The notes beneath the pieces were generated by a model. It searched no databases and was not told the DNA's origin. It saw nothing but the letters and a program-made list of their open reading frames with translations. Both the position numbers and the translations under genes were made by a program. A DNA stretch of 19,625 nucleotides from Azolla caroliniana (taxonomy: Eukaryota; Plantae; Polypodiophyta), in contig JBHGNT010000597.1 in the NCBI GenBank assembly GCA_043228905.1, positions 1 through 19,625 on the forward strand. Direction: 5' to 3'. Within the stretch, counting starts at the first letter, position 1. Each line of letters starts with the position of its first letter. Of this stretch, positions 1-11,669 are shown piece after piece.

Positions 1-61
1 GGTGAAGTGTCTCCGTGACACCTTGTGTTAGGTCTTGTCCGGTCAGCGAATAACACAGTTT

Positions 62-79
62 TGGCGACCACGATGGGAT
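62..79 (+). promoter_or_regulatory. Primer-binding site complementary to the 3' 18 nt of a tRNA-Arg-like tRNA (second copy on the - strand at 99-116)
   Basis: TGGCGACCACGATGGGAT starts with TGG (pairs with CCA) and is the exact complement of 99-116. Confidence 0.9.
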
Positions 80-116
80 CCAAAGGTCGTGGGTTCGAAT
101 CCCATCGTGGTCGCCA
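76..116 (+). pseudogene. 3' half of a mature tRNA (about positions 36-76, Arg(UCG)-like), including CCA
   Basis: GGA-TCCAA-AGGTC-GTGGG-TTCGAAT-CCCAT-CGTGGTC-G-CCA fits the anticodon 3' strand, 5-nt variable loop, T stem-loop, acceptor strand, discriminator and CCA with canonical spacing. The isotype is assigned from remembered similarity to eukaryotic tRNA-Arg(UCG); the anticodon itself is absent. Confidence 0.85.
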
Positions 117-157
117 AAACTGTGTTATTCGCTGACCGGACAAGGCCTAACACAAGG

Positions 158-540
158 TGTCACGGAGACACTTCACCAAAGGGTGATTACGGCATAGGAT
201 TAAGATTCAACGATTACAACGACTTCCATAGGTTACACGATTAGAGTGCTTTAGTTAATTACACGCGTAAGATATAACAGTAATTACAGAACGGAAATCA
301 AGACAGAAGTATAAATATCATAAGCTCTATTAATTATCCGCTGTGATTACAATGGGGTCCGGGCCTTTAAATAGGTTTCCGGCCCGTAGTACAAAACGGT
401 GCCTCTCGCACCTATTCGGGATCCGTCCGGATCTGGAACGGCATACCGTTTCCAGTCCGTCCGTCCACACTATGCTTATTACAACCATACTTAATTAATT
501 CCTTCACTCCGTATTTTGGACTCCTTGCCGGCCGGTAACA
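158..540 (-). mobile_element. 5' LTR (about 383 bp) of a tRNA-Arg-primed LTR retrotransposon, probably Gypsy, inserted into a Gypsy pol
   Basis: On the - strand it starts TGTTACCGG at 540 and ends CCGTGACA at 158 (imperfect inverted termini). A TATTTAAA box lies near 366-373 and a PBS lies downstream. Pol coding sequence starts abruptly at 541. Alternative 3' end at 121-123. Confidence 0.75.
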
Positions 541-1917
541 ACGCTTAATGAATTCGACGAGAGCAAGTACGACTGGGAGTGGCTCTAGATCGGCGGGTTC
601 CTAAACAAAATGACAGCGGACGCAACGTGGACGAAGGAAGAGACCAACCGGATTCGGAAGAAACTGTACCGATTCTTCCTACGGGCCAGGAGCATATGGA
701 AGCACCAGAAGAAGAGAAACGACATCCCGCTCCGAGTGGTGGCGAAGAAAGAGGAACAAGAAGAATTTCTCACGGCATACAACGAGAGTCCCTAGGCCGG
801 ACACCGCGGGACGTGGGCCACATTCGAGAAGCTAAAGGGGAAGTACTGGTGGCCGGGACTATACCGAGACATGCATTGGTTTGTGACGACTTGCGAAAGC
901 TGTTAGGTGCACTCCATAGTTCGACATCGGGACGAGCTTCACCCGACCTACCCTCCGACCGTCCACTTTAAGTGGATGGTGGATCTGGTGACGATGCCGA
1001 TGGGGGTAGGGTAGATGCGGTATCTGGTGCTGGCTCGGGAGGACCTGACGAACCAGGTGGAAGGTCGAGCGTTGCAAAACAAAACGACCACGGCCGTGTG
1101 CCGATTTCTGATCGAAGAAGTGGTATGTCGGTACGGGTGCGTAGGTAAGATCGTGGCCGACCGCGGAGAATTGGATGCGCAAGAGGCGGAAGAGTTGTTT
1201 GACCGGCTAGGGATTAAACTCTTGCTCACCACAACGTACAATCCGGAGGCTAACGGGAAGGTGGAACGCGGACAAGGGCCAATCGTCAAAGCGTTAGTAC
1301 AGGCGTGTGGAGGCCAAGTCAGAAACTGGCCATGGCTCTTACCCTATGCATTGTGGGCGGACCGAACTACGCACAGTTTGGTAACCGGGTTCGTGCCGGC
1401 AGAGCTAATGTACGGGCAGAAGCCGATCATGCCAACGAAGCAGACAATCTCCTCATGGGTCACGGTGGAGTGGAAAGACGAGATGAGCCGGGAGGAGCTG
1501 TTAGCGGCACGGATTCGGCAACTGGAGCGAAGACCAGAGGACGTGGACCGAGCCGCGGAGAAGCTACGGGTGGCGAGGGTAAAGAACAAAGGACGGTTCG
1601 ACCGGACTCACCGACTAAGACCGACGAAGATCGAGGAAGGCGACTGGGTTCTAGTGTATGACAACACCCTCGACAACCAGCATAGGGCAATGCGGAAGTT
1701 TGCAAGAAGGTGGTTCGGGCCTTATGTGGTGACAAGCGCCAACGACAATGGGACCTACCATCTCGCGGAGCTCAACGGGACAAGGATGGCGGTACTGGTG
1801 GCGGGGAATAGGATCAAAGCATTCAAAAAGCGGCACGAGGTTGAACTGGACCCGGAGGACCTGGATAGCGACAACGACCGGCTCGGAACGGATGTCGATT
1901 CGGAAGACGAAGGATAA
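541..1917 (+). pseudogene. pol: Ty3/Gypsy pol 3' fragment: integrase (zinc-binding region, DDE core, GPY motif), no chromodomain
   Basis: One continuous frame with four TAG stops (586, 793, 904, 1012). Motifs: AGHRG...CESC, WMVDLV, VADRGE, NGKVERG, WFGPYVV. Clearly homologous to the integrase at about 18660-19625. Confidence 0.93.
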
Positions 1918-1991
1918 GCGTTGGCCAGTCTTCTCCAACAAGAGTCCAATTTTGGCGCATACCGGTGGATGCGCGGTTAGGTGGGGCCGGA

Positions 1992-3076: not shown

Positions 3077-3141
3077 ATAGATATATAAATAAATAAATAT
3101 ATATATATATACACATATATATACACAAGGAGGGCAAGTGA

Positions 3142-3195
3142 GGATTCGAACCTTGCACCTCCTAATTAAGGGTCAGTAGGCTTACCAGTGAGCCA
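3142..3195 (-). promoter_or_regulatory. tRNA-derived Pol III type-2 internal promoter (A box + B box)
   Basis: On the - strand: A box TGGCTCACTGG (3195-3185) and B box GGTTCGAATCC (3152-3142), 32 nt apart. Does not fold into a full cloverleaf. Confidence 0.7.
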
Positions 3196-6320: not shown

Positions 6321-6603
6321 TGTCGAATACATGTGTATAATGGACGTATTCACACTATCCTGTTTTGGCCATTTATGTAATTAGCATAAAGGGCAGTTGC
6401 CCTAAGTCGGTCACTATATATAGTGACCTAGTAACCTCTTTGTGGGGTTGGCTATTGTATTGTTGCTTTATGGAATAAAGAGTCTTTTGTGTCTCTCTCT
6501 CTCTCTCTCTCTCTGTCCAACGACCTACAGTCTGTCATACGCAGGTACTCAGAAACCATCGAATGCTTCTTGATCTTCCGCACTGACGACCTATTCTCCA
6601 ACA
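6321..6603 (+). repeat. 5' LTR
   Basis: TGTCGAATAC...CTCCAACA; 282/283 identical to 11387-11669, the difference being at 6491 at the edge of the CT microsatellite. Confidence 0.98.
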
Positions 6604-6605
6604 TC

Positions 6606-6618
6606 TGGTATCAGAGCC
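6606..6618 (+). promoter_or_regulatory. PBS for initiator tRNA-Met
   Basis: TGGTATCAGAGCC, 2 nt after the LTR. Confidence 0.97.
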
Positions 6619-7179
6619 TGCACAGTAGTCGGTCCCTCAATCCGCTGTCGGCCGTCGTCTCTGCATTCGGTTTCCTGCGTCATTCGAAGAAGACAGAAGA
6701 AGAAGAAAAACCAGGTTTGCATCTCATCGCGTTAGATCATCTTTGTTTGGAGTAAGCCAGCAGGTTGTACTCCGTTCCCAGTGATCGTAACCGCTCGAGG
6801 TGAAATCCCCTTGTGCAACTCTGACAACAACCCAAATTCGTGCTTCATCTGGCTGATCGACATTCGAGAGGATCAGTCGGATCCGTCTCTCTCGTCGCTG
6901 CAGTCAACCGAAGCAAAATCGGTCCAGATAATCGGTTTTAATAATCGGTATTCGGCATATATATCCGAAGCGAACCGGGCTCACTCCGACTCGGCAACAT
7001 TCGGGAAGACCAGTCGGTTCTGTCCCTCAAGTTACCGGAGTCAATTCGAGCAAGTTCCGAAGCCGAACCGACTCGGGTTCAAATCCGACTAGAACGATAT
7101 CGGGTGAGCCAACCGGCTGCACTCCAACAAGGCTCGTAGTCAACTCCGAACCGAGCTTCGTCAACCGAAACCCAATTTG

Positions 7180-10100
7180 ATGGCATCAACATCCGGCTCG
7201 TCAGAAATGAGTCTCCGAAAGTTCGATGGATCGAACTTCAACTTCTGGAAGGAGCAAATGCAGGACTATCTCATAGTCAAGGGGCAAATCGATCCCATCG
7301 AAAATGAAGAACCTCCAGAAGGATACAAACCAATTGAGTGGCAGAAGCTGGACAGAATTGTCCGCGCCACGATTCGGATGCACCTATCGGAATCGGTATA
7401 TTTTACGGTGCAATCGTGTACGACAGCATTCGAACTGTGGAAAACACTGTCGGACACTTACGAAAAGAAGGTCGCCGCAACAAAGATGTTTCTGATCCGG
7501 CGCCTCTACAACTTGCGGATGAAAGAGTCCGATTCGGTTCAAGCACACCTCAATGAGTACGAAAGCATAAGCTCCCAAATCTCGTCACAGGGGACGGCAA
7601 TCGAGGATGAGCTCAGAGCAATGATACTCATGAGCAGCCTTCCCTCATCATGGGAAACTTTCGTCACAACCGTGTGCAACGCGTCAACCACGGCTGTTAA
7701 ATACTCCGAAGTCACGAGCGCAATCCTGACCGAAGCAGCTCGGAGAAAGTCTTTCGCCAAAGACTCAACAGACGACGCTTATGTAGTACAAGGTTCGACA
7801 GACCGATCGAACATACGAGGAAGAGATTCCTCACGACCGCCGAACAATCAGCGAAGACGGAGCCAGTCACGGGATAACCGAATCTGCAACTATTGCAAGA
7901 AACCCGGACACATCAAAGCCGACTGCCGCGCACTCAAGAACAAGAACAACAAGAAGAGTGGCCGGCATGAGGAGATCAATTACGTCAGCTTCTCAGCTGA
8001 TGTACTACCGGACGACCCGAATATACTATCAATAGAAAATCCTGTCGGATCAGAAGTTCTGCTCACGACTGAAGAATCGAGCACATGGCTCTTAGATTCG
8101 GGTGCGTCATTTCACGTGACTCCTCATCGATCCCAATTTCGGCAATATACGATCCGTCACTCTGACTCAGTTCGGGTCGGCAACTCGCAACACTGTGACA
8201 TCATTGGAATCGGCACAGTAGAGCTCAACCTTGCAGGTGGCTCTACACTTGTACTTCACAATGTCCGACATGTACCCGAGCTCTCAAGGCCATTGATCTC
8301 GGTCGGACAACTAGATGAAGACGGCATTCGTGCCGGTTTTTCTTCGGGAGGGTGGACACTTCACAGGGGGAACCTCCTGCTTGCTAGAGGACCCAAGATA
8401 CACTCCCTGTATCCGTTACATGTTACGCTCAGAGAGGGTAACCTGTTTTTGGTGGATATTCCTGTGTCATCACTATGGCACCGACGATTAGGACACCTCA
8501 GCAAGGCCGGCATCACGCACCTATCTAGAGCCGGATACATCCCCAAACTCTCCTTCTCCGACCATCAATTCTGCGAGCATTGCCAGTATGGCAAACAAGC
8601 AGCCGCATCACACCCGACATCAGCACCAAGAGAAACGAGACCTCTTGATTTAGTCCATTCGGACGTCTGTGGCCCAATGCCGCATCAGTCTCTAGGCGGT
8701 GCCTCTTACTTCGTCACTTTTATTGACGATTCGACTCGAAAGGTGTGGGCTTATCCAATTCGCACCAAAGATCGTGTCTTCTCGATCTTCACCGATTGGC
8801 TCGCTATGGTGGAAAATCAAACCGACCGAAAGCTGAAATGCTTTCGAACCGACAACGGGGGAGAGTTTAAATCCGAAGAATTCGTCAAATTCTGCCGACA
8901 ACGCGGCATCCGACGTGAACTTACGGCACCACACAGTCCGGAGCAAAACGGGATTGCAGAACGAATGAATCGGACAATCCAATAACGGACAGTTTCCATG
9001 CTCCAACACTCCGGACTGTCGGATGGCTTCTGGGCAGAGGCTCTACTCACGGCAGTACACATAATCAATATGTCGCCAAGTAGACCTCTAGGACTTCAAA
9101 TTCCTCAGGAACTATGGATCGGCAGTAAGCCGAATTACGACAAGCTGAGGATCTTCGGATGCGAGGCGTACGCCCTCATTCCGAAAGATGATCGCCGAAA
9201 ACTTGCACCTCGGTCCAGGAAATGCATTTTCCTTGGATATGGATCCGACGGCGAAATGGGATACCGACTCTGGGACCCCGAACGCAGGCAAATCGTTCGA
9301 AGTTCGGACGTTGTGTTCAACGAGTCGGCTATGAACCCATCCGTCGAAAAACCAATCGAAGTCCGAAGGGTAACATTTTCCGATGTGCCAACCCTTCAAG
9401 AAGGCCCCGCTCTCAACACACGGTCAGCTTCACGGGTAGCTGAACCTTACTCTACCGACTCGGACAACTCCGACTCGGCACAGCAGAACAACTCGCTTTC
9501 GGACCATCCGACCACGATACCCGATGCGACCAGCCCAATCATACCTCGACGATCCGAGAGACTGTCGCAACCTCCGGAGAGGTATTCTCCTGGAATTTTC
9601 TTCACCGACGCCGGAGAACCGACGTCTTACGAAGAAGCATCGACATCTGTCGATTCCGCCACCTGGCATCTGGCGATGGAGTCGGAAATGCACTCCATTC
9701 GGGCAAACAAGACTTGGGATCTAGTCGAATTACCTAGGAACCGACGTGCTCTTCCTTGCAAGTGGGTTTATCGACTAAAAGAGACGTCTGATTCGACCAC
9801 CCCAAAGTACAAGGCCAGATTAGTTGCGAAGGGCTTCCGACAAGAATATGGCGTCGACTTCGACGAGATTTTTTCACCAGTGGTGAAAATGACAACCCTT
9901 CGTTTTCTACTCGGCGTAGTGGCAGCCGACAACTTGGAGCTGATTCAGCTAGATGTCAAAACAGCCTTCCTCCATGGTGATCTCGAGGAGGAAATTTATA
10001 TGGAGCAGCCAAAAGGCTTCGTGGCAACTGGCCAAGAACATCTAGTCTGCCGACTCAGGAAGAGTCTATACGGCCTCAAACAGGCACCCCGACAATGGTA

Positions 10101-11193
10101 CAAGAAGTTCGACGACTTCATCCAATCGATCGGCTTCTCCAAAAGCGATGAGGACCATTGTCTCTTCACCAACACAGCTCAAGATGGATCACCCATCTTC
10201 CTCATCATTTACGTGGACGACATGCTAATTTCTGGACGCCACGCGGGCGAACTTGCCGATCTCGTTCGGCAACTGCGGTTGAAGTTTGCCATGAAGGACC
10301 TCGGTCCGGCACGACACATACTCGGCATGAAGATTAGTCGGCATCGCGATAAACGACATCTTTTTTTGTCTCAGACCGACTACATCGGACGTGTCTTGGA
10401 ACGCTTCAACATGCAATCAGCCAAATCTGCTTCAACCCCGCTCCCCATGAATCTTCGGCTCTCTCAGCGAGACTGCCCGACATCCGGTCCGGAGGGGGAA
10501 GATATGAAGTCGGTACCGTATGCACCGGCAGTCGGCTCCCTTATGTACCTGATGGTCGCGACACGGCCTGATATTTCTCATGCCGTAGGAGTCGTTAGCA
10601 GATTTATGCACAATCCTGGCCGATCGCATTGGAACGCAGTCAAGCATGTGTTCAGATATCTGGCTGGCACAAAAGACCATGGCATTCTTTTCGGTCCGAA
10701 CCGAACCTCAGGCGTAGTCGGTTACACCGACTCGGATTTCGCCGGCTGTATAGACAGTCGGAAATCAACAACCGGATACTACTTCAAATTCGGCAATGGA
10801 GCAATCTCATGGAAGTCGAAACTTCAGGAGTGCACAGCGACCTCAACGACCGAAGCAGAATATGTAGCTGCGTCCGACGCAGCAAAAGAAGCTCTGTGGC
10901 TCGGTCGGCTGGCGCACACGTTTCGACAAGTCGACCATGACTCGGCTCCAGTTGTCTACAGCGACAGTCAAGGTGCTGTTGCCTTGTCGAAAAATCCGGT
11001 TCACCACAACGCCTCCAAACATATCGACGTTCGATATCACTTCGTTCGGGACTGCGTCATCTCAGGGAAAATCGGTCTAGAGAAAATATCCACAACCGAC
11101 AATGTCGCAGATGGAATGACCAAGTGTCTTTCGGCAGACCGCTTTCGGTCTCTTCGGCATCAGATGGGCGTAACGACAAACCAGTCCGGTTAG
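7180..11193 (+). CDS. gag-pol: Copia gag-pol polyprotein (about 1337 codons) with one premature TAA at 8983-8985
   Basis: Gag KFDGSNFNFWK; zinc knuckle CNYCKKPGHIKADC; protease WLLDSGASFH; LWHRRLGH...CEHC; integrase HSDVCGP, RTDNGGEF, NGIAERMNRTI; RT YVDDML; RNase H YTDSDFAG, TEAEY, KHIDVRYHF. The two ORFs in the track (7177-8985, 8998-11193) share one frame. Confidence 0.95.
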
Positions 11194-11377
11194 AGCCGGA
11201 CACAGAGCAGGATGGTTTCCGACAACCGACATCAGTTCCTTAATGATCGGCTTCAACTGTTCCGACCCGACCAGTTCGGTCTTCTGCCTTCGGACCCTGC
11301 CGACTCGAACAAAGCTGATATGTCCGAGAACCTAAGTCTATACCTGTAATCTTAGATAACCCATGTATACGCCCATT

Positions 11378-11386
11378 ACGGGGGAG
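11378..11386 (+). promoter_or_regulatory. Polypurine tract
   Basis: ACGGGGGAG immediately before the TG of the 3' LTR. Confidence 0.9.
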
Positions 11387-11669
11387 TGTCGAATACATGT
11401 GTATAATGGACGTATTCACACTATCCTGTTTTGGCCATTTATGTAATTAGCATAAAGGGCAGTTGCCCTAAGTCGGTCACTATATATAGTGACCTAGTAA
11501 CCTCTTTGTGGGGTTGGCTATTGTATTGTTGCTTTATGGAATAAAGAGTCTTTTGTCTCTCTCTCTCTCTCTCTCTCTCTGTCCAACGACCTACAGTCTG
11601 TCATACGCAGGTACTCAGAAACCATCGAATGCTTCTTGATCTTCCGCACTGACGACCTATTCTCCAACA
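11387..11669 (+). repeat. 3' LTR
   Basis: Direct repeat of 6321-6603, followed by the TSD ATCTC. Confidence 0.98.

What the first reader, a model, noticed from the sequence alone, without database searches (positions are those of the whole stretch)
1..540. Head-to-head LTR fold-back with the reverse-transcribed tRNA primer fossilised at its apex
Seen: on the - strand the order is LTR (540-158), spacer, 18-nt PBS (116-99), then about 20 further nt complementary to the same tRNA (T-loop, variable loop, anticodon 3' strand), then an inverted copy of PBS, spacer and LTR. Arms are 78/79 identical, and the junction sits on a GGAT microhomology (76-79). Known: eukaryotic nuclear tRNA genes do not encode CCA, and plus-strand strong-stop synthesis normally halts at m1A58 after 18 nt. 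Inference: RT read through A58 (position 98), stalled near tRNA position 37 (position 77, commonly m1G), snapped back onto its own PBS and copied the LTR backwards. The product is a palindromic DNA with two U3 ends that integrase could insert. This would be a route from an LTR element to a MITE-like long-hairpin locus and a potential dsRNA/siRNA source against its own family.
Basis: partly seen in the sequence, partly recalled or inferred. Interest (0 to 1): 0.85.

Follow-up and report, generated by a model that had tools for sequence, protein, structure and literature searches.

The report
Retrotransposon hairpin with fossil tRNA primer
A plant jumping gene's end repeat sits here back to back with a mirror copy of itself, joined through a 41-base copy of a host tRNA, likely because the copying enzyme overran its tRNA primer and folded back, leaving a dead hairpin that would make silencing RNA against its own family if transcribed.

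Summary
Arms 1-79 and 99-177 match at 78/79. Bases 76-113 are 38/38 identical to a tRNA-Arg(UCG) gene found in all four public runs laid, followed by a CCA at which those gene contigs stop matching. High-copy family contigs match the tRNA for only 13 nt (104-116), then continue in non-tRNA leader. [quoted passage not shown] Best reading: reverse transcriptase read through A58 to tRNA positions 36-39, then snapped back (0.5); priming on a second strong-stop molecule is the main rival (0.27). Corrections: snap-back alone gives one U3 end, not two; the stop at 37 is not resolved; the U5 end may be 123, not 158. No listed contig spans the apex, and the upstream flank and TSD were unavailable, so two-ended integration is untested and an artefact keeps about 0.1. 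The scan noted similar two-left-end, tRNA-joined inserts in other genomes (unchecked notes); seven literature searches found none described. It is likely a dead-end copying error, not a MITE family.

The parts
1..55 (+). Left arm: inverted copy of the LTR U5 part, cut by the window start; one difference from the right arm at 33
   Evidence: family contigs carry the right-arm state at 145 (loose ends) and no variant is listed at 145
62..79 (+). Left-arm 18-nt complement of the tRNA-Arg(UCG) 3' end (the length of an m1A58 stop product), longer than the 13-nt family PBS
76..79 (.). GGAT microhomology (tRNA 36-39 pairs with 59-62); the junction lies somewhere within it
76..116 (+). 41-nt copy of mature tRNA-Arg(UCG) positions 36-76 including CCA; 80-98 forms the hairpin loop
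   Evidence: 38/38 identity with tRNA gene contigs in 4 of 4 runs, which stop matching at 113; Rfam tRNA match 66-113, E 0.026, below the gathering score
104..116 (-). Family primer-binding site, 13 nt in the high-copy family
   Evidence: depth at 104-107 vs 100-103: X1 11917/29.7, X2 2463/116, X3 2334/186, X4 28013/492; non-tRNA loose ends before 104
123..540 (-). LTR of a high-copy Ty3/Gypsy-type family: U3 end at 540, U5 end at 123 (rival boundary 158)
541..545 (+). Predicted 5-bp target-site duplication; the second copy would lie outside the window
   Evidence: uninterrupted pol diverges before 539; the duplication itself is untested
541..1917 (+). Target: decayed pol (integrase region) of another Gypsy element, with in-frame stops before 1015

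Best explanation
This is an inverted pair of LTR ends joined through an exact 41-base copy of host tRNA-Arg(UCG), likely the inserted remains of one failed reverse-transcription intermediate that folded back on itself. Shown: the tRNA copy, its CCA, the 13-nt family PBS, near-identical arms and the U3 end joined to pol. Inferred steps: (1) plus-strand synthesis copied U3-R-U5 and ran through an unmethylated or bypassed A58 to tRNA position 36-39, stopping at the predicted m1G37 or at the end of a 3' tRNA half; (2) RNase H removed the tRNA, and the 41-nt tail could not complete strand transfer on a 13-nt PBS; (3) the tail paired with its own tRNA 54-62 copy (7-9 bp with two G-T pairs) and RT copied back through the PBS copy and LTR, displacing the minus strand; (4) the resulting hairpin has one U3 end, so a further step (invasion by another plus strand and extension across the loop, or annealing of two hairpins) would give a two-U3-end palindrome for integrase. 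The locus is predicted to be immobile; either LTR promoter would produce a long hairpin RNA.
For: 38/38 match to tRNA gene contigs plus CCA. The family diverges from the tRNA after 13 nt, yet both arms carry 18 nt. The arms are identical over 104-140, whereas all 17 listed family records over 104/105-140 differ from the window by 1-3 letters, which fits one template. A 3'-paired fold-back register exists: -1.5 kcal/mol and P = 0.10 for an end at tRNA 36. Literature passages: stop before m1A58, and failure of transfer after read-through (PMC8599865); minor HIV-1 product ending at position 37, and m1G37 in tRNAs reading most C-starting codons (PMC13191261); tRNA-copying dead-end plus strands accumulate in Ty3 particles (PMC5371799). 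In L006 an 18-nt tRNA copy joins RT coding within about 3 nt of its end, showing that such ends get misjoined in relatives.
Against: For an end at 38 (a true m1G37 stall) the snap-back conformer is unfavourable: +1.8 kcal/mol, P = 0.001, against a competing T-arm hairpin at -3.9. The sequence cannot separate self-priming from priming on a second molecule. Step 4 is pure inference. None of the 32 listed records (of 77 laid) bridges the apex, and depth at the loop in X1, X2 and X4 is fully explained by tRNA-gene contigs. Those runs hold at most 36% of the words of 1-2600, so the locus is unconfirmed independently. The upstream flank is missing.
Confidence: 0.5

Rival explanations
1. Two-molecule priming: a read-through plus strand ending ATCC-3' paired end to end with a second plus strand that had stopped at m1A58 (ending GGAT-3'). 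Both extended, giving a double-stranded palindrome with two U3 ends in one step.
For: The left arm's tRNA complement ends at exactly 18 nt, the m1A58 stop. The 4-bp terminal duplex scores about -4.4 kcal/mol. It needs no extra step for two-ended integration, and dead-end strands accumulate in Ty3 particles.
Against: It needs read-through to position 36; an end at 38 leaves 2 bp, about -1.1. It needs two tRNA-copying strands with the same private variants, whereas family copies differ from the window by 1-3 letters per 37.
Confidence: 0.27
2. A read-through strong-stop DNA was inserted by one end (or patched a break). The fold-back arose later in chromosomal repair, or by opening of a hairpin end, so the left arm has no matching U3 end or TSD.
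For: Relatives show long tRNA copies joined to ectopic sequence: L006 into RT coding, L015 into the last ~430 bp of the element, and L002 beside an unrelated ORF.
Against: A later break would have to fall within the same 4-nt microhomology. The one visible end is a clean TG..CA junction in pol.
Confidence: 0.1
3. Library or assembly fold-back at the edge of the sequence, built on a real one-sided LTR plus tRNA copy.
For: The window begins inside the arm, and no listed contig spans the apex.
Against: A DNA artefact cannot create the CCA-bearing tRNA copy. The arms differ at one site, while sequence quality nearby looks high (Copia LTRs 283/283, ORFs of 625 and 735 aa).
Confidence: 0.1
4. The structure is a normal feature of the family (a long tRNA-like leader, or the tRNA cassette that replaces the PPT).
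For: Relatives L012 and L015 do carry a tRNA-like cassette instead of a PPT, and earlier notes describe dual tRNA sites in this genome.
Against: That cassette lies at the 540-equivalent end and has a different sequence. Family depth falls 13- to 400-fold beyond 13 nt. None of the 4 related loci extends past 18 nt.
Confidence: 0.03

Closest known systems
Dead-end plus-strand strong-stop DNA of yeast Ty1/Ty3 (PMC5371799, passages)
   Same: A first plus strand copies the primer tRNA, is not used for transfer and accumulates; the genomic PBS is not inherited from the tRNA, which fits the 13-nt PBS here.
   Different: There 12 nt are copied and the product is described as a dead end. Here 38-41 nt were copied and the product is joined to an inverted LTR and to chromosomal pol.
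HIV-1 read-through products P3-P5 past m1A58 (PMC13191261 and PMC8599865, passages)
   Same: Minor plus strands run past A58 and stop at 55, 54 or 37; the longest cannot complete transfer.
   Different: These are in vitro or cell-culture products, said to be non-integrable. Here one appears preserved in a plant genome as a hairpin.
Mu killer and other inverted-duplication silencers of maize (PMC3440606 and bioRxiv 10.1101/2020.01.07.897926; search listing and start of abstract only)
   Same: An inverted duplication of a transposon end that could yield hairpin RNA against its family.
   Different: Those derive from DNA transposons and have shown silencing. Here the origin is reverse transcription, and transcription or siRNA is untested.
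Autointegration inversion circles of Arabidopsis SISYPHUS particle DNA (PMC7197481, passages)
   Same: Inverted retrotransposon DNA made inside particles.
   Different: Their junctions are integration sites at an LTR end; here the junction lies inside copied tRNA.
Plant non-chromovirus Ty3/Gypsy elements with tRNA-Arg PBS (PMC6317226, passages)
   Same: TG..CA LTR, tRNA-Arg primer (10% of surveyed elements), mostly 5-bp TSD.
   Different: This insert has inverted rather than direct LTRs and no internal region. The lineage of the parent family was not determined.

Membership tests
LTR retrotransposon (intact element) | Two direct LTRs around an internal region | tested here: not met
   The repeats are inverted and separated by only a 19-nt loop
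LTR retrotransposon (intact element) | tRNA-complementary PBS next to U5 | tested here: met
   tRNA-Arg(UCG) complement 6 nt from TGTT at 123
LTR retrotransposon (intact element) | Target-site duplication | not testable with these tools
   The left end is outside the window and no genome is held
Read-through plus-strand strong-stop DNA | U3-R-U5 followed by a copy of mature tRNA (with CCA) beyond A58 that is absent from the family genome | tested here: met
   38/38 tRNA gene match plus CCA; the family diverges after 13 nt
Read-through plus-strand strong-stop DNA | Stop at a modified base (position 37) | tested here: inconclusive
   The junction is ambiguous across 36-39; C35 is not copied; folding prefers 36
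MITE / foldback DNA transposon | Terminal inverted repeats at both ends with TSD | not testable with these tools
   Only 79 nt of the left arm are visible
MITE / foldback DNA transposon | Many dispersed copies of the same element | tested here: inconclusive
   No apex in 32 listed of 77 records from 4 runs of other material or in 15 of 15 metagenome loci; the source genome was not searchable
TRIM | Short direct LTRs with PBS and PPT around a small internal region | tested here: not met
   Inverted arms and no internal region
Mu killer-type hairpin silencer | Inverted duplication of family sequence | tested here: met
   1-177 folds as one stem at -164 kcal/mol
Mu killer-type hairpin silencer | Hairpin transcript, siRNA and silencing in trans | not testable with these tools
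   Needs stranded RNA and small-RNA data of the source organism

The most novel reading that the evidence does not exclude
In Gypsy families of non-seed plants that have a short 13-nt PBS, overrun plus-strand DNAs are repeatedly folded or joined and integrated as LTR palindromes. Each transposition burst would thus seed convergent-promoter hairpin loci that silence the family, and genomes would keep a readable fossil record of where RT stopped on the primer tRNA (58, 54, 37), i.e. of tRNA modification in the germ line.
Probability: 0.17. Interest if true: 0.8.

Novelty: new variant of a known kind. Interest (0 to 1): 0.5.

Why it matters
Plus strands that overrun m1A58 are known from test-tube and cell-culture work and are described as unable to integrate. 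This locus appears to preserve one in a chromosome, with a base-exact record of how far RT read into its primer. If such junctions are common, genome assemblies could be mined to map RT stops on primer tRNAs in vivo, and to test whether retrotransposons create their own hairpin silencers, as maize DNA transposons do. As a single copy with an unseen left end, it is a well-documented accident rather than a new mobile element.

Tried and rejected
No own genome is held, so the upstream flank, TSD and copy number could not be read. ARAGORN finds no tRNA gene in the window or in 15 of 15 loci. The Rfam miRNA hits on the hairpin are below their gathering scores and reflect only the stem. Four scans of viral and prokaryote collections for family motifs returned 0 loci. 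No RNA holder was listed, which says nothing about expression. No listed contig bridges the apex; X3 is ambiguous because of one unlisted record of depth 6.6. A symmetric dimer of two read-through strands through the GGATCC palindrome scores well (-7.5) but was rejected: it would put 41 nt of tRNA on both arms. Autointegration was rejected because the junction is inside tRNA. Two independent LTR insertions around a tRNA retrocopy were rejected because the arms are closer to each other than to listed family copies. A resemblance between the host element's 3' end and U5 is not significant (59/1000 shuffles) and was dropped. A weak L015-integrase blastx match was treated as chance. Pfam and PDB did not recognise the short L006 peptide; only one homologue, P0121, did. 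Of 15 metagenome loci, 11 share only the PBS-length match and were set aside as unrelated or other families. The scan pattern demanded 16 nt of tRNA complement, so the 4 relatives are biased to long PBS copies. Look-ups of earlier findings near the locus, by sequence and among relatives were empty. No supplements were read.

Full report
Observation. The window opens inside an inverted repeat. Pairing position i with 178-i gives 78 matches in 79 pairs (1-79 against 177-99), the one difference being 33/145; the loop is 80-98. The longest inverted repeat in 30 shuffles of 1-600 was 12 nt. Numbered back from the CCA at 114-116, the stretch 76-116 has canonical tRNA geometry for positions 36-76, with A58 at 98 and G37 at 77.

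Host and setting. The ORF at 1015-1917 is an integrase with best hits of 75-88% identity in metagenome assemblies and 47-65% to Riccia and Ceratopteris proteins among the 120 listed of 291, so the host is likely a non-seed plant (inference). The frame continues back to 541 with in-frame stops. In runs X2 and X4, contigs of uninterrupted pol diverge from the window before 539, so the LTR end at 540 is an insertion junction. No own genome is held.

The tRNA is a host tRNA. Laying four public runs on 44-140 (77 records laid, 32 listed) gave contigs in all four that match 76-113 with no difference and stop at 113, before the CCA. In X1 and X3 the loose 5' letters complete the anticodon stem and give anticodon TCG: tRNA-Arg(UCG). 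The window diverges from the gene at tRNA 35, so copying ended at 36 or later. That nuclear tRNA genes lack CCA is established knowledge and fits the contigs stopping at 113; the template was therefore mature tRNA.

The family does not normally carry it. Depth at 104-107 against 100-103 is 11917 vs 29.7 (X1), 2463 vs 116 (X2), 2334 vs 186 (X3) and 28013 vs 492 (X4). High-depth records run on past 104 with unaligned letters, and X1 and X4 give a non-tRNA leader as loose end. The usual PBS is thus 13 nt. In X1, depth of about 113 at 76-79 is not explained by the tRNA gene, so a minority of about 1% carry longer complements. [quoted passage not shown] Caveat: these runs hold at most 36% of the words of 1-2600 and are probably not the source individual.

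Orientation. One metagenome scan gave 15 loci, of which 4 align to the LTR beyond the PBS (L002, L006, L012, L015). They carry 17-18 nt of complement and no extension, but the pattern selected for long complements. In L006 the 18-nt copy runs into RT coding on the same strand: the one homologue found, P0121, carries PF00078, and similarity starts within about a codon of the end of the copy. In L015 it joins the last ~430 bp of the element, homologous to L012. So the window's minus strand is the element's sense strand, 540 is U3, and the tRNA-Arg site is the ordinary PBS. L012 and L015 have a tRNA-like cassette rather than a purine tract before U3, as earlier notes on this genome claim; that is a different site from the one studied here. 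The U5 end is unresolved. TGTT at 123 is conserved in 4 of 4 relatives and mirrors the U3 end, while a sister fragment at about 5036 starts at the 158-equivalent.

Mechanism. Passages of PMC8599865 and PMC11251516 state that plus-strand synthesis stops one base before m1A58 and that overrun strands fail transfer. PMC13191261 lists a minor HIV-1 product ending at modified position 37, and states that m1G37 marks tRNAs reading C-starting codons other than CAN, which would include this one. Plant TRM5 makes m1G37, though the passages read do not show it for tRNA-Arg (PMC6874348). In Ty3, the tRNA-copying first plus strand is a dead end that accumulates (PMC5371799). Here an overrun tail ending at tRNA 36-39 can pair with its own copy of 54-62. 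Computed: end at 36, -1.5 kcal/mol, P = 0.10; end at 38, +1.8, P = 0.001; competing T-arm hairpin -3.9. A strict m1G37 stall is therefore possible but not favoured; read-through to 36 or run-off from a 3' tRNA half fits as well. The same junction results if the tail primes on a second strand stopped at 18 nt (4 bp, about -4.4; 2 bp, about -1.1). I prefer snap-back because it is unimolecular and explains why the arms are identical over 104-140 while all 17 listed family records over 104/105-140 differ from the window by 1-3 letters. Its weakness is that it yields one open U3 end; a second plus strand invading and extending across the loop, or two hairpins annealing, is needed for a two-ended substrate.

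Is it real? No listed contig spans the apex. In X1 the depth at 84-91 equals the single tRNA-gene contig; in X2 and X4 the depth at 76-83 equals the listed tRNA contigs; X3 is ambiguous. This is expected for a private insertion and is no confirmation. Against an artefact: a DNA library cannot supply the CCA-bearing tRNA copy, and the arms differ by one change not listed among family variants, in a window whose young Copia has 283/283 identical LTRs. I leave 0.1 for an artefact.

Recurrence. In one search, X4 record 27 (84-119, no difference, then an LTR-like TGTTG) and X3 record 19 (84-119, one difference) look like further tRNA copies of at least 33 nt with CCA next to an LTR end. A record laid on 94-126 in X1 and X2, with matching loose ends in all four runs, may reach tRNA 54. 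These are short contigs and were not followed up. Earlier scan notes describe tRNA-joined, two-left-end inserts in other genomes, some recurrent and with TSDs, and a two-right-end Copia in this genome. They are unchecked AI notes and not independent support.

Novelty. Seven literature searches listed no paper whose title or abstract start describes an integrated LTR palindrome with copied primer tRNA; the library omits most subscription and older papers, and I read passages, not whole texts. The ingredients are known: read-through products, dead-end strands, inverted particle DNA (PMC7197481) and hairpin silencers such as Mu killer (listing only). The element works like a potential Mu killer, since 1-177 folds as one stem, but transcription is untested. 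It is not shown to be a MITE, and it is predicted immobile because it has no sense R at the 3' end. Verdict: a real-looking, well-explained copying accident; new variant of a known kind; interest 0.5.

Noticed in passing
window 6321-11669: Young Copia element: LTRs 283/283 identical, 5-bp TSD, gag-pol in one frame split by a single stop at 8983-8985; nested in an older minus-strand Copia.
   Followed up: partly
   Followed up: partly
window 1953-1970: A sense-strand PBS-like motif, preceded by a spacer like the one before the family PBS, lies just after the host integrase stop, where a PPT region would be expected.
   Followed up: no
L006:1599-1748: LTR plus 18-nt tRNA copy joined directly into the middle of RT coding: a likely misdirected second-strand transfer.
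   Followed up: yes
L015:1-1055: LTR, 18-nt tRNA copy, about 430 bp of the element's 3' part, tRNA-like cassette, LTR: a TRIM-sized deletion derivative whose breakpoint sits at the end of the tRNA copy.
   Followed up: partly
L012:1080-1120 (reoriented copy) and the matching part of L015: No purine tract before U3; a tRNA-like stretch ending in CCA sits two bases before the LTR, as earlier notes on this genome report.
   Followed up: partly
runs X3 and X4 laid on window 84-119: Short contigs with at least 33 nt of tRNA-Arg plus CCA next to LTR-like sequence: possible further read-through junctions.
   Followed up: no
window 121-153: Stem-loop next to the PBS whose outer arms are conserved in 4 relatives, a candidate U5 initiation structure.
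   Followed up: partly
window 3130-3175: Minus-strand T-loop-like motif beside TA repeats; ARAGORN calls no tRNA gene there.
   Followed up: no
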